DNA of 64,000 bases. Origin: a virus. Taxonomy: Duplodnaviria > Caudoviricetes. The DNA is taken from the IMG/VR virus record IMGVR_UViG_3300037781_000042, positions 96,001-160,000 of that record, one strand, 5' to 3'. The position numbers and the translations under genes are program-made. Below the pieces are notes generated by a model that saw nothing but the letters and a program-made list of their open reading frames with translations, had not been told where the DNA came from and did no database searches. Within the stretch, counting starts at the first letter, position 1, and the number at the start of each line of letters is the position of its first letter. Of this stretch, positions 8,474 through 27,789 are shown piece after piece.

Positions 8474-8743
8474 TTAAAGTCCTAGGTTAATTGACTCTTC
8501 AGCATAGTTAATAAATTTATCATAGAATTGTTTTTCTATTTTTAGAGATCCAATTTCTCCCTTCTTTAATTCTTTTGACATCTCCCTAGAAATTAAACCT
8601 ATTTCATTTGAATGAACACATATAAAATTTTTAAATGTCTTATTATCTTTCCAATGAATTTGTTGTAACTTATCGTCGTATTTAATTTCTAGTGACCAAT
8701 TTTTTCCTTCTAATTTTTTAAAATCCATAATTAACATATCCAA
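8474..8743 (-). CDS. Hypothetical protein, family A N-domain only
   Basis: GKNWSLEIKYDDKLQQIHW. Confidence 0.55.
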   Translation of the reverse strand: MDMLIMDFKKLEGKNWSLEIKYDDKLQQIHWKDNKTFKNFICVHSNEIGLISREMSKELKKGEIGSLKIEKQFYDKFINYAEESINLGL

Positions 8744-12196: not shown

Positions 12197-12934
12197 TCAC
12201 TTAGCCCTCCTTAGTTTGATTAGACCGCGTTCAACAGCTTCTCGCATACTGAAAAATTGTATTGATAATCTTGTCAAAGGGAACCAATCCCAAAACTCTA
12301 ATACATAGCTATATTCATACTTCTTCATAGCTTCATATAACTCCATTTCCTCCAATCCTTCTAACTCTTTAACAACCGTGTCATAAGTTAGTTTGCTTGT
12401 CTGCTGCTCTGCTCTTTCGAGTGCTTTGCAAAGGTCGGTGAAGGTGTAGTTGATTTCGGATTTGTGAATATCGCTCTTTGTGCCACTCATACCGAAATAA
12501 GGATAAATGTTTTCGACAAAAAGTTCTGTTGTTTCTTCTTTATCAATAGAAATATCTCTAGCAAACTCTAGGTCATTGATATTGGTGTTCCACTTAAACC
12601 CCTCTTTAATCCAAATAGTCTCCGCTCCTACTTTGTCTTCAGTTTCCCAAATCTTTATCTTGAAGTTCGGATTATCAAAAGTTCTTTCGGTTATAATCTT
12701 AGGTTTGGTTAGGTTGTCGAGATGCTTAGTAAGATGATTAAATACGTATTGAGAATAAATCAAAGCGTTTTTTCTATCTTGATTCATCTTTGATATTAAT
12801 TGGTCTGCTTCTGAATAGGGGAGGTAATAAGGTATTTCTCCACACCTGTCATTCCAAAGCACCATTCCCATATCCTCATCATATTTAATCTTAATTTCCC
12901 AATCTTCCCCTTTGTAGTGTTTTAGTCTGCTCAT
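12197..12934 (-). CDS. Hypothetical protein, family A (higher-GC copy)
   Basis: GEDWEIKIKYDEDMGMVLW ... FKIKIWE..VGAETIWIKEGF ... EINYTFTDLCKALE. Confidence 0.7.
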   Translation of the reverse strand: MSRLKHYKGEDWEIKIKYDEDMGMVLWNDRCGEIPYYLPYSEADQLISKMNQDRKNALIYSQYVFNHLTKHLDNLTKPKIITERTFDNPNFKIKIWETEDKVGAETIWIKEGFKWNTNINDLEFARDISIDKEETTELFVENIYPYFGMSGTKSDIHKSEINYTFTDLCKALERAEQQTSKLTYDTVVKELEGLEEMELYEAMKKYEYSYVLEFWDWFPLTRLSIQFFSMREAVERGLIKLRRAK

Positions 12935-13089
12935 TTCAAAACCTCATATTTTTGTTTAACTTCTTGCTCGGATAATATAGAGTAATCTTTATAACTATGT
13001 CTTGCTAACATCATCTTTAATTCTTTTGTGAAGTTCCCTTCCCATTTAAAAGCTTCAATTTGTGGGGTGTTTTTCCTAATTAGTTTCAT
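12931..13089 (-). CDS. Small protein (52 aa), shortened paralog of 17533..17784; not in the ORF track
   Basis: Hand translation MKLIRKNTPQIEAFKWEG...LSEQEVKQKYEVLK, compared with MKVIKKKPEEFHAYQWNG...LTEEDFNKYYKK. Confidence 0.5.
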   Translation of the reverse strand: MKLIRKNTPQIEAFKWEGNFTKELKMMLARHSYKDYSILSEQEVKQKYEVLK

Positions 13090-13300
13090 TTTTCATTGTC
13101 ATTAGTTTTCATATACATTCCATAAATTAGTGACCAAAATATAAAAAACGTTAAAGTAATACCACCTATTTTCCATATATTTTCCCATACTGTAAAATCA
13201 AATGTTAAATGGATAAATGAAAAAATCAAGTAGACAATAATAGTTATAGTTATTAAGCCAATTATCCAATTTTTGCTTTTGTGGTATTTTATATTCTTAC

Positions 13301-13639
13301 TCATTTTTCTAGTAACTTTAATTTATTAATAAGGTCTTTATGTTTCTTTCTTTCTAATTTAACAACATCCGCAGGTGCTTTTAAAATAAAAGATTCATTA
13401 TTTAATTTACTTTCTATTTTACTAATATAAGATTTTAATCTTTGTATTTCTTCTTTCTGTCTTTTTAACCATTCTTCTTTTACATCTTTCCCAACAGTCA
13501 TATAAATTACACAATCGCCATCTACTTTTAATAAAATATTTGACTCTAAATCAATATCATCTGTATAAATTATTTCACTTGCTCCAATAATATTTTTCAC
13601 CAAATTTTCATTCTGGTTTATAACTTTATCAAGTCTCAT
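13301..13639 (-). CDS. Stand-alone valyl-tRNA synthetase C-terminal coiled-coil (tRNA-binding arm) domain
   Basis: EWLKRQKEEIQRLKSYISKIESKLNNESFILKAPADVVKLERKK matches the ValRS C-terminal pattern E..RL.KE..KL...I.....KL.N..F..KAP..VV..E..K. Confidence 0.8.
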   Translation of the reverse strand: MRLDKVINQNENLVKNIIGASEIIYTDDIDLESNILLKVDGDCVIYMTVGKDVKEEWLKRQKEEIQRLKSYISKIESKLNNESFILKAPADVVKLERKKHKDLINKLKLLEK

Positions 13640-14054
13640 TATATTTCTCTAATAATAAATTTAATCTTTCTATTTCATCTTCTTCAGCCCTTCTTTTCAA
13701 ATATTCCATTTCCTCTATCTTTTCTTCTCTTTCTATTCTTAATTCGTCTTCTTTTATTCTTTTTAGAATATCCATCTTTTCTTGTTCTTTCTTTTTCCAA
13801 TCTTTAAAATCTGTATACAGATCATCTATACTAACGTTAAAATATTCTTTATTACCCTCTGAATCTACTGGATAATGATCGTACATAAAAGAAAGAATCG
13901 TTTCCTTTCCCTTCTTTTCTACTGTTAGTGGTGCTCCGTATTCCATTTTTTGAACTGCCCAATTGTCCGAATATTTTTCTTTAAGTACTTTAAAGAATTT
14001 ATCGTACATATAATCTAATACTTCTTCTAATTCTTCTTTTTTGAAATGTTTCAT
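13629..14054 (-). CDS. Hypothetical coiled-coil protein, paralog of 14301..14744
   Basis: Shared pattern YDK....LK.KY ... F.V...D....F....K ... LN.L..KY. Confidence 0.55.
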   Translation of the reverse strand: MKHFKKEELEEVLDYMYDKFFKVLKEKYSDNWAVQKMEYGAPLTVEKKGKETILSFMYDHYPVDSEGNKEYFNVSIDDLYTDFKDWKKKEQEKMDILKRIKEDELRIEREEKIEEMEYLKRRAEEDEIERLNLLLEKYNET

Positions 14055-14114
14055 TTTGATTTCACCGTAAGTTTTATTTGAAATGTTTCATTTTGATTTC
14101 ACCGTAAGTTTTAT
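14041..14114. repeat. Perfect 2 x 37 bp tandem duplication
   Basis: ttgaaatgtttcattttgatttcaccgtaagttttat at 14041-14077 and again at 14078-14114. Confidence 0.95.
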
Positions 14115-15929: not shown

Positions 15930-16619
15930 TCATTTTAAACTATTCTCGTATTCTTGTAGTATGCTATAAAGAACCTCTATAGATGAATAATCTTCAATTA
16001 TTTCTAAAATCTTTATTTTATCTAAAATAAGTTTTTTTAAAACTTCTTCTTTTTTAGTACATGTTTTTTCTTCTATTTCTTCAAGTGCTTCACAAAGCTC
16101 TTTAAACGTATAATCAATTTCATTTGTCCAAATGGCGTCTTTTGAGAATTCCATTCCAAATGCAAATATACAGTCATCACTATAAATAGATGTAACTTCA
16201 TTAGAATTAATTACGATACTGAAATTGTTTTTATTATCATTTTCTGAATTATAATAAAAATCTTCTTTAATCCAAATAGTTTCTATTCCTACAGCATTTA
16301 GATTTTCCCAAACTCTAATATGAAAATTTTCATTGTGAAATACTTTTTCATTTTGAATAATAGAATCTAAAAAATTAACTAGATTTTTATAGGATCTTTT
16401 CGTCGTGGTTGTGCTATTCCAAATAGATTCTATTTGAATACGATTTATAGTAGAAATTAAACTTGAAGTCATTTCTGCGTAATAAGGACTTTCAGATACT
16501 TCGTCTATATAAGATTTTATTTTACCTTTCAATCGTCTATATAGTAAAAGATTGGTATCTTCATCAAATTTAATTTGGATTTCCCATCCATCTTTTTTAT
16601 AAGTTCTTATTTTATTCAT
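15930..16619 (-). CDS. Hypothetical protein, family A
   Basis: DGWEIQIKFDEDTNLLLY ... FHIRVWE..VGIETIWIKEDF ... EIDYTFKELCEALE. Confidence 0.7.
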   Translation of the reverse strand: MNKIRTYKKDGWEIQIKFDEDTNLLLYRRLKGKIKSYIDEVSESPYYAEMTSSLISTINRIQIESIWNSTTTTKRSYKNLVNFLDSIIQNEKVFHNENFHIRVWENLNAVGIETIWIKEDFYYNSENDNKNNFSIVINSNEVTSIYSDDCIFAFGMEFSKDAIWTNEIDYTFKELCEALEEIEEKTCTKKEEVLKKLILDKIKILEIIEDYSSIEVLYSILQEYENSLK

Positions 16620-16942
16620 TTTATTTTTTCTGATTGTTTATGTCTATTGCTAATTATAGCCTTCTTCCTAATAAATTCAGAATCACACTCTTCCAACCCC
16701 TCAAATAACAGAGCTAAATCGTCAAATGTTTCTCTATCCATTTTCATACTATCTTTAGAGTTTTTCCCACTATTTATCTTTACAATCTCATCTGTTTGTA
16801 CAATCATTGAAAACGGAAATATTCGTATACCTTTTGGTATATTACCTCTTCTGTTCCAATGTGCTGTTGATGTTTCTTCATCATACCAGAACTCCATTTG
16901 CCATTCGTATCCCGAAAAAATATTTTTTGTATTATTGCTCAA
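16616..16942 (-). CDS. Hypothetical protein, family A N-domain only
   Basis: GYEWQMEFWYDEETSTAHW. Confidence 0.5.
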   Translation of the reverse strand: MSNNTKNIFSGYEWQMEFWYDEETSTAHWNRRGNIPKGIRIFPFSMIVQTDEIVKINSGKNSKDSMKMDRETFDDLALLFEGLEECDSEFIRKKAIISNRHKQSEKIK

Positions 16943-27424: not shown

Positions 27425-27433
27425 CTTAGTTTG

Positions 27434-27789
27434 TGGAGCAGGCGGGGAACGATCCCGCGTCTTTTGCAATCCTATTAATAAATATACTACAAGTTTAGTT
27501 AATTTATAAATTTCCTAAATAGTTAACTAATTAACAAGTACTATTTAGTAGATAATTAAGAATTTCGATTTTGTATCATCATCAACTTCCAAAATCTATT
27601 TCTAAAGTATTTCGACGTTTTTAATTACATTATAGAAAGTATTCATTAAAACGTATTAGCTAGGCTGCTAACGAAGCGTACTGAGTTTCGTCAGTTACTT
27701 AGTATCAGTGTTTATTTAAGTGTCGAGACCTTTACCAACACTACTTGCAATTCATTAAATTGATCCAAAATCGAATCCTAAACTGCCCC
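27434..27789 (-). ncRNA. ssrA: tmRNA (transfer-messenger RNA), tag peptide (A)DETQYASLAA
   Basis: 5' GGGGCAG pairs with 3' CTGCTCC-A, giving G3.U70 and A73 (alanine identity). GGATTCGA follows the 5' stem. T-arm is GCGGG/CCCGC. Resume context AAGTAACT-GAC precedes the tag ORF 27692-27660, which ends LAA-TAG. Confidence 0.95.

What the first reader, a model, noticed from the sequence alone, without database searches (positions are those of the whole stretch)
13301..13639. Stand-alone ValRS C-terminal tRNA-binding arm encoded by the phage
Seen: a 112-aa ORF with its own ATG, corresponding to only the last ~110 residues of ValRS; no catalytic domain is nearby. Established: this coiled coil contacts the tRNA elbow, and T4 modifies host ValRS with its Vs (tau) peptide. 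Inference: a captured domain repurposed as a tRNA shield, a decoy or a modulator of host ValRS or ribosomes. It fits with the tmRNA as a translation-control theme.
Basis: partly seen in the sequence, partly recalled or inferred. Interest (0 to 1): 0.6.

Follow-up and report, generated by a model that had tools for sequence, protein, structure and literature searches.

The report
Free-standing ValRS tRNA arm in phages
A 212-kb pond phage carries an intact small gene for only the tRNA-gripping arm of valyl-tRNA synthetase, with no enzyme body found; such arm-only genes recur under selection in several large-phage lineages, so this is probably an undescribed viral tRNA-binding protein whose job is untested.

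Summary
Observation confirmed. Window 13301-13639 (minus strand) encodes 112 aa matching the last ~105 residues of ValRS (Pfam PF10458, 43.6 bits; model rmsd 1.8 A on the 1GAX arm). No synthetase core was found in the 212-kb record (82% complete). The gene is codon-ameliorated and under purifying selection (dN/dS 0.21). It is not a one-off: stand-alone arms occur in about seven phage families (dN/dS 0.04-0.36 where measurable), including a curated complete 735-kb phage and two CheckV-complete phages, none with a ValRS core hit. A motif scan gave 9 stand-alone arms among 16 real viral hits and 0 of 80 cellular hits. Some jumbo phages graft the same arm onto GluRS, so it behaves as a portable module and is not tied to phage tRNA-Val. 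Best reading: a non-catalytic tRNA-elbow binder that keeps host tRNA usable. Binding, expression and purpose are untested, and one origin versus several is unresolved. There is no homology to T4 Vs. I found no paper describing the family; databases auto-label or mislabel it. This scan noted ValRS and SerRS arms earlier in other phages.

The parts
13301..13639 (-). Stand-alone ValRS C-terminal gene, 112 aa (P0001)
   Evidence: dN/dS 0.21 against the syntenic relative P0002
13496..13639 (-). Residues 1-48: remnant of the ValRS pre-arm junction region (two short helices and a beta-hairpin in the model); more diverged than the arm
13304..13495 (-). Residues 49-112: antiparallel coiled-coil tRNA-binding arm (PF10458)
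   Evidence: model residues 49-112 align to 1gax_A 793-856, rmsd 1.8 A, Z 7.7
13343..13408 (-). Residues 78-99: hairpin tip motif (K78, L79, N81, F84, K87, A88, P89, V92, V93, E96, K99), the part best conserved in phage and cellular copies
13629..13639 (-). 11-nt overlap of the start with the end of the upstream 141-aa ORF (13629-14054), consistent with translational coupling
   Evidence: the same arrangement in relative L002
13301..13304 (-). 4-nt stop/start overlap with the downstream 72-aa ORF (13086-13304)
27433..27789 (-). Context only: phage tmRNA, a tRNA-like RNA and so a possible ligand; not linked to the arm gene

Best explanation
The gene is a domesticated piece of a bacterial valS. 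It makes a small non-catalytic protein that keeps the tRNA-contacting coiled-coil arm of ValRS and has lost the catalytic, editing and anticodon-reading domains. SHOWN: origin, intact frame, selection, recurrence across phages, no synthetase core found in carriers, best conservation at the hairpin tip, and reuse of the arm on phage GluRS. INFERRED: it is expressed with its co-oriented accessory-gene array and binds the D/T-loop elbow of tRNAs and tRNA-like RNAs with little amino-acid specificity, because the valine identity elements are read by domains it lacks. Most likely purpose (inferred): keeping the host tRNA pool usable during infection, by stabilising or covering the elbow against tRNA-directed defence or decay, possibly while phage repair enzymes act on the tRNA. 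I put 'binds tRNA-like RNA' at about 0.65 and this protective purpose at about 0.4.
For: Selection: dN/dS 0.21, p 2e-4 for this gene; 0.04, 0.05, 0.15, 0.35 and 0.36 in five pairs from two other families. Codon use is like resident genes (CAI rank 55 of 103, GC3 0.126 vs median 0.129). Recurrence: 9 stand-alone arms and 3 GluRS fusions among 16 real viral motif hits, against 0 stand-alone among 80 cellular hits. No ValRS core hit in the complete 735-kb phage (its one PF00133 hit reads as LeuRS) and no PF08264 in two CheckV-100% and one 90% carriers. The arm is the only part common to all copies: one lineage starts at the arm itself (L040) and the GluRS fusions carry the arm only. Basic residues at the positions of T. 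thermophilus R818 and R843 are kept here (K74, K99) and in 13 and 15 of 17 phage copies; these positions were not in the search pattern. The window arm has net charge +6, pI 8.6. Three near-complete carriers encode tRNAs but no tRNA-Val and the window record has no canonical tRNA, so it is not a helper for a phage tRNA-Val. The genome encodes a CCA-adding-type enzyme and an RNA ligase. The PARIS nuclease AriB needs D-loop U16 for efficient cleavage (PMC12409363).
Against: No binding, expression or phenotype data. In ValRS the arm is an auxiliary contact, so the isolated monomer may bind weakly (inference). Most other phage copies are acidic overall (pI about 5, arm net charge -4 to +3). Two arm positions that are basic in 94-97% of cellular ValRS (804, 841) are basic in only 6 and 5 of 17 phage copies, though both are kept in this gene. 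Tip conservation in the IMG/VR set is partly imposed by my search pattern. No conserved gene neighbourhood: only 1 of about 10 contexts has RNA-repair neighbours. The role of R818 and R843 as tRNA contacts is from my memory of Fukai et al. 2003, which I could not retrieve.
Confidence: 0.42

Rival explanations
1. Adaptor in trans: the arm binds tRNA elbows and also docks on a phage or host enzyme (RNA ligase, CCA-adding enzyme, synthetase, modification enzyme), aiming it at tRNA; the GluRS fusion is the covalent version.
For: Arm fused to phage GluRS in three IMG/VR contigs and one ENA contig, where the nearest Atlas clusters are 505-511-aa Bacteroidota GluRS without it. P0096 overlaps the start of an RNA ligase gene followed by an HD plus AAA_33 gene. 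The window genome has a ligase and a CCA-adding-type enzyme.
Against: Neighbours differ in every lineage. In this genome the repair genes are about 100 kb away. The region N-terminal to the arm, which would be the docking surface, is not conserved between lineages.
Confidence: 0.17
2. Competitor or modulator of host ValRS (T4 Vs-like outcome): it competes for tRNA-Val or docks on ValRS, changing valylation and so the stringent response or translation.
For: T4 keeps a ValRS modifier whose loss impairs plaque formation in minimal medium (PMC13716836), so ValRS is a real phage target. The captured piece comes from ValRS.
Against: No homology to Vs. The domains that read valine identity are absent, so tRNA-Val specificity is not expected. 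The arm also serves on GluRS. A phage without a detected ValRS of its own gains little from inhibiting the host enzyme.
Confidence: 0.13
3. Protein decoy or mimic: the arm imitates a host ValRS surface recognised by a defence sensor, toxin or protease, and RNA binding is irrelevant.
For: It sits in fast-turnover small-ORF arrays of the kind that often hold anti-defence genes. Many copies are acidic. The surface tip is what is conserved.
Against: I know of no defence system that senses or attacks the ValRS arm. The GluRS fusion is better explained by tRNA binding.
Confidence: 0.12
4. Other nucleic-acid binding (DNA, rRNA or ribosome), like the structurally similar Uup C-terminal hairpin.
For: The Uup C-terminal domain (2lw1) scores Z 6.7, within 1 of 1gax; helical hairpins are generic.
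Against: The sequence is ValRS-specific; no PF16326 hit at E up to 1; 11% identity to 2lw1.
Confidence: 0.08
5. Neutral, recently captured host fragment, or one half of a split phage ValRS.
For: The window record is only 82% complete. The selection estimate for this gene rests on 13 synonymous and 13 non-synonymous changes.
Against: At most about 37% identity over the full length to cellular ValRS pieces, codon use ameliorated, dN/dS well below 1 in six pairs, complete carriers show no core.
Confidence: 0.05

Closest known systems
C-terminal coiled-coil tRNA-binding arm of bacterial valyl-tRNA synthetase (Pfam PF10458; T. thermophilus ValRS-tRNA complexes 1GAX, 1IVS)
   Same: Homologous sequence above the Pfam cut-off; same hairpin (rmsd 1.8 A over 64 residues); same tip motif; preceded by part of the junction region.
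   Different: Own gene with its own start; no catalytic, editing or anticodon-binding domain found in the record; phage-borne; junction part eroded.
UniProt A0A7M1S176, 136 aa, crAss-like phage cr114_1 (Suoliviridae), automatic name 'Valyl-tRNA synthetase tRNA-binding arm domain-containing protein'
   Same: Top BFVD fold match (E 2.4e-3, prob 1.00); a short viral protein with the same domain label.
   Different: 20% identity; an automatic label only. I could not retrieve its genome context or find a paper on it.
Free-standing synthetase-derived RNA-binding domains: Trbp111 (PMC11286949) and the KTSC domain of some jumbo phages (PMC7824862)
   Same: A non-catalytic domain otherwise appended to an aminoacyl-tRNA synthetase, encoded alone; KTSC shows that phages carry such domains.
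   Different: Different folds. Trbp111 is a cellular OB-fold dimer that binds the tRNA 3' end, not the elbow.
Phage T4 Vs (tau peptide), modifier of host ValRS
   Same: Small phage protein connected to ValRS; vs is needed in minimal medium (PMC13716836).
   Different: No detectable homology. Vs binds the enzyme, whereas this protein is a piece of the enzyme that normally touches tRNA.
Uup (ABC-F) C-terminal DNA-binding hairpin, PDB 2lw1
   Same: Similar two-helix hairpin (Z 6.7).
   Different: 11% identity; no PF16326 hit; lacks the ValRS sequence match.

Membership tests
Valyl-tRNA synthetase (class Ia) | Rossmann catalytic domain (PF00133) | tested here: not met
   Absent from the 112-aa ORF and from the 212-kb record
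Valyl-tRNA synthetase (class Ia) | Anticodon-binding helical bundle (PF08264) | tested here: not met
ValRS tRNA-binding arm domain (PF10458) | Profile score above the curated cut-off | tested here: met
   43.6 bits vs 25.9
ValRS tRNA-binding arm domain (PF10458) | Antiparallel coiled-coil hairpin with the conserved tip motif | tested here: met
   Model pLDDT 91.5; top match 1gax_A 793-856, rmsd 1.8 A; tip residues kept
ValRS tRNA-binding arm domain (PF10458) | Binds the tRNA elbow | not testable with these tools
   No protein-RNA prediction or assay available
Split (two-gene) aminoacyl-tRNA synthetase | Partner gene with the remaining domains in the same genome | tested here: inconclusive
   None in this 82%-complete record; none detected in complete carriers W01, G004, G006, which argues against it for the group
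T4 Vs-type ValRS modifier | Sequence homology to Vs | tested here: not met
   The only PHROG hit at E up to 0.01 is the ValRS-length family 12710
T4 Vs-type ValRS modifier | Binds host ValRS and changes its properties | not tested
Trbp111-type free-standing tRNA-binding proteins | OB fold that binds the 3' CA end | tested here: not met
   The protein is a helical hairpin of PF10458 type
Trbp111-type free-standing tRNA-binding proteins | Stand-alone homolog of a synthetase-appended domain (works-like criterion) | tested here: met
Uup/ABC-F C-terminal domain (PF16326) | Profile match | tested here: not met
   No hit at E up to 1; only a generic structural likeness

The most novel reading that the evidence does not exclude
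Large phages repeatedly cut the elbow-gripping arm out of host ValRS and use it as a general tRNA clamp: free, to protect or triage host tRNAs against tRNA-targeting immunity, and fused, to upgrade their own enzymes such as GluRS. With the SerRS and PheRS arm cases noted elsewhere in this scan (not checked by me), this would be an unrecognised class of phage counter-defence or translation-control proteins built from synthetase RNA-binding modules.
Probability: 0.3. Interest if true: 0.82.

Novelty: new variant of a known kind. Interest (0 to 1): 0.62.

Why it matters
tRNA is a common target of anti-phage defence, and the known phage answers are replacement tRNAs, repair enzymes and direct inhibitors. 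A small non-enzymatic tRNA-elbow binder would be a different kind of answer, and it is cheap to test (100-130 aa, several natural variants). It also gives a second handle on why phages touch ValRS, a question still open for T4 vs. The GluRS-arm fusion is a natural swap of a tRNA-binding module between synthetases. In practice, JGI labels several of these 103-144-aa proteins 'valyl-tRNA synthetase', so counts of phage-encoded synthetases may be inflated.

Tried and rejected
Homodimer prediction: no answer, score 0.00, neither support nor evidence against. Word-index searches for longer homologs and close viral relatives found nothing, which is weak evidence. Promoter scan: 92 sites against 80.7 +/- 7.9 expected, uninformative. 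Tree of 106 arms (99 columns): phage copies fall in 5-6 places, but one origin is not rejected (p-AU 0.27), so 'independent captures' is not claimed. Host from the arm tree: unresolved; nearest rows are Ignavibacteriota and Rhodothermota without support. Weak hints for a Bacteroidota host come from the CCA-adding-type enzyme and the capsid protein. Hits in Listeria, Staphylococcus, Enterococcus and faecal 'phage' records were set aside as probable host valS: one (MT835486) was checked and is a ValRS fragment; the rest were not checked. Three short cellular frames (L074, L131, L136) lie in interrupted, probably frameshifted full valS genes and were rejected as stand-alone. Most of the 150 representative hits look like contig-edge ValRS fragments; I checked context only for those reported. 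Link to phage tRNA-Val rejected. Fukai et al. 2003 and Olson and Marchin 1984 could not be retrieved. Seven literature searches found no description of a stand-alone ValRS arm; the library lacks most subscription papers. One search was an uninformative search.

Full report
OBSERVATION. The ORF is real and lies on the minus strand at 13301-13639: ATG, 112 aa, TGA. It sits in a long co-oriented array of small ORFs, overlapping its upstream neighbour by 11 nt and its downstream neighbour by 4 nt. Pfam PF10458 matches residues 55-111 at 43.6 bits against a cut-off of 25.9. The N-terminal half is also ValRS-derived: PHROG 12710 covers residues 9-106 at profile positions 796-894 of 903, many ValRS C-terminal fragments align over residues 5-111, and a full ValRS aligns with its residues 797-900 to almost the whole ORF and nowhere else in the genome. 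The record is a 211,581-base linear virus contig, 27% GC, 82% complete by CheckV, from pond metagenomes. It has no PF00133, PF08264, PF00749 or PF00587 match and no canonical tRNA by ARAGORN.

STRUCTURE. AlphaFold2 with 91 sequences gives pLDDT 91.5: two short helices, a beta-hairpin, then helices 51-79, 82-87 and 90-111. The top Foldseek match in the PDB is ValRS 1gax_A (prob 0.99, E 0.029). VIA-align places residues 49-112 on 1gax 793-856 at rmsd 1.8 A, Z 7.7, but generic hairpins score within 1 Z, so the sequence evidence carries the assignment. On the ungapped alignment to 1gax, K74 and K99 correspond to R818 and R843. From memory (Fukai et al. 2003, not retrievable here) these are the tRNA phosphate contacts, and the arm touches the D/T-loop corner.

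IS IT A WORKING GENE? A syntenic relative (P0002, 89% identical, Logan contig L002) keeps the frame, length and neighbours. There are 13 synonymous changes in 64 sites and 13 non-synonymous in 272: dN/dS 0.21, Fisher p 2e-4, while eleven neighbours range from 0.05 to 1.03. Codon use is typical of the genome (CAI rank 55 of 103 small ORFs), and full-length identity to cellular ValRS pieces is about 37% at most, so the capture is old. Expression was not observable.

IT IS A RECURRENT PHAGE GENE. The 735-kb phage LR756501 carries a stand-alone 125-131-aa arm gene between unrelated ORFs. The 735-kb genome of that study was curated to completion (PMC7162821). Its single PF00133 hit is a 508-aa protein that reads as LeuRS by its N-terminal motif (my reading), and it has no PF08264. 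Six relatives of that protein were found (P0044, P0082, P0152-P0155); the four whose context I fetched lie in phage-like small-ORF arrays. P0096 lies in a replication region and overlaps an RNA ligase gene followed by an HD plus AAA_33 gene. A degenerate motif scan of IMG/VR gave 19 hits: 3 chance, 4 ValRS proper (full-length or cut by the contig edge), 9 stand-alone arms and 3 GluRS fusions. A similar but stricter scan of cellular genomes gave 80 hits and no true stand-alone gene (Fisher p 9e-9, with the caveat that the patterns differ and the hits are not independent). Two CheckV-100% carriers and one at 90% lack PF08264. One 103-aa family has 30 cluster members, on contigs up to 326 kb, next to T4-like genes. 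Pairwise dN/dS is 0.04 (p 2e-6), 0.05 (p 2e-13), 0.15, 0.35 and 0.36. The top BFVD match is a 136-aa protein of the crAss-like phage cr114_1 with an automatic arm label. Grouping by sequence, shared extensions and shared neighbours gives about seven families, 25-46% identical to P0001 over the aligned part. Their N-terminal boundaries differ, from 18 to 126 residues before the tip. The free tree scatters them in 5-6 places, but a single origin is not rejected (p-AU 0.27), so I do not claim independent captures.

WHAT IS CONSERVED. Against a profile of cellular ValRS ends, the phage arms score 38-68 bits and the upstream parts -2 to 3 bits (cellular medians 74 and 12, self-included). One lineage begins at the arm itself (L040). 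K822, L823, F828, A832, P833 and E840 (1gax numbering) are kept in essentially all 17 stand-alone copies; part of this is imposed by the search pattern for the IMG/VR set, but not for the copies found by profile search. Positions 818 and 843, outside the pattern, are K or R in 13 and 15 of 17, whereas positions 804 and 841, nearly always basic in cells, are often lost. This fits selection on the hairpin tip rather than on packing against the rest of the enzyme (inference).

THE GLURS FUSION. L036, L042, L051 and L217 encode 595-600-aa proteins with PF00749, PF19269 and a C-terminal PF10458, among intein-bearing DNA polymerase B and homing-endonuclease genes. The nearest Atlas clusters are 505-511-aa Bacteroidota GluRS without the arm. 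Phages therefore move the arm onto a synthetase for another tRNA, which is the best indirect evidence that it works as a portable, amino-acid-blind tRNA grip. Three near-complete stand-alone carriers encode tRNA-Glu, Asn, Met and Thr but no tRNA-Val.

GENOMIC SETTING. This phage is T4-like, with a capsid protein 36% identical to those of Lak phages. It encodes a CCA-adding-type nucleotidyltransferase and an RNA ligase about 100 kb from the arm gene, a tmRNA and a tRNA-like RNA without a normal anticodon arm. A Bacteroidota host is weakly suggested.

MECHANISM. Shown: origin, selection, recurrence, no core detected, tip conservation, reuse on GluRS. Inferred: expression with the accessory array, binding to tRNA elbows (about 0.65), and a role in keeping host tRNA usable (0.42). 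Covering the elbow would not block an anticodon-loop cut directly, but AriB of the PARIS system depends on D-loop U16 (PMC12409363), so occlusion of the corner could matter. Rivals: adaptor for repair or charging enzymes (0.17), Vs-like modulator of ValRS (0.13; T4 vs is needed in minimal medium, PMC13716836), protein decoy (0.12), other nucleic-acid binding (0.08), neutral or split enzyme (0.05). Against the best reading: the isolated arm may bind weakly, many copies are acidic overall, and neighbourhoods are not conserved.

COMPARISON AND NOVELTY. It is a member of the PF10458 domain family but not a ValRS, not a Vs homolog and not a Trbp111 homolog. It works, by inference, like free-standing synthetase-derived RNA-binding domains such as Trbp111 (PMC11286949, which binds the 3' end) and phage KTSC (PMC7824862). 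I found no paper on stand-alone ValRS arms or on GluRS-arm fusions; databases carry automatic or wrong labels. Earlier notes of this scan report a ValRS arm, an S4-ValRS-arm fusion, SerRS arms and a PheRS arm in other phages; I did not check them and do not count them as evidence.

VERDICT. Real, selected, recurrent and apparently undescribed; function untested. New variant of a known kind; interest 0.62.

Noticed in passing
L036:735-2522, L042:10430-12232, L051:1570-3363, L217:8001-9800: Jumbo-phage GluRS with the ValRS arm fused at the C-terminus. Two copies begin with a short sequence loosely resembling the capsid-targeting-like N-termini found on about a dozen ORFs of the window genome, so they may be packaged in the virion (untested).
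   Followed up: partly
L012:6001-8336: Stand-alone arm gene overlapping an RNA ligase gene followed by an HD plus AAA_33 (kinase-phosphatase-like) gene, an apparent RNA-repair module.
   Followed up: partly
window 14037-14110: 37-nt tandem duplication (97% identical) covering the start of the 141-aa ORF upstream of the arm gene.
   Followed up: no
window 12197-12934, 15930-16619, 8474-8743, 16616-16942: ORFs sharing a similar N-terminal motif and, for the first two, a DNA repeat (family D1): a probable paralog family with no informative Pfam or PHROG hit for the two tested.
   Followed up: no
L056:13338-13465 (genome 70338-70465), minus strand: tRNA-like RNA (RF00005, 35 bits) with a long insert in place of a normal anticodon arm; the only tRNA-like gene I saw besides the tmRNA, and a candidate ligand for the arm.
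   Followed up: partly
window 27433-27789: tmRNA whose T-loop departs from the consensus.
   Followed up: no
L020:1189-2715 (LR756501): 508-aa LeuRS-like protein of the 735-kb phage, without PF08264, lying next to tRNA genes.
   Followed up: partly
L014:4776-5462 and L040:10006-10455: Two stand-alone arm proteins share an extra C-terminal domain of about 80 aa with no Pfam match (35% identity over 138 columns).
   Followed up: no
L015/L013 (IMG/VR 3300028283_000002): A 94% relative of the 735-kb phage's arm gene has an altered reading frame in its last codons, after the arm.
   Followed up: no
phage records OR846930, OR848267, OR849909, OR846605, MT835486: GenBank 'phage' records with ValRS C-terminal matches that are probably host valS contamination; only MT835486 was checked.
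   Followed up: partly
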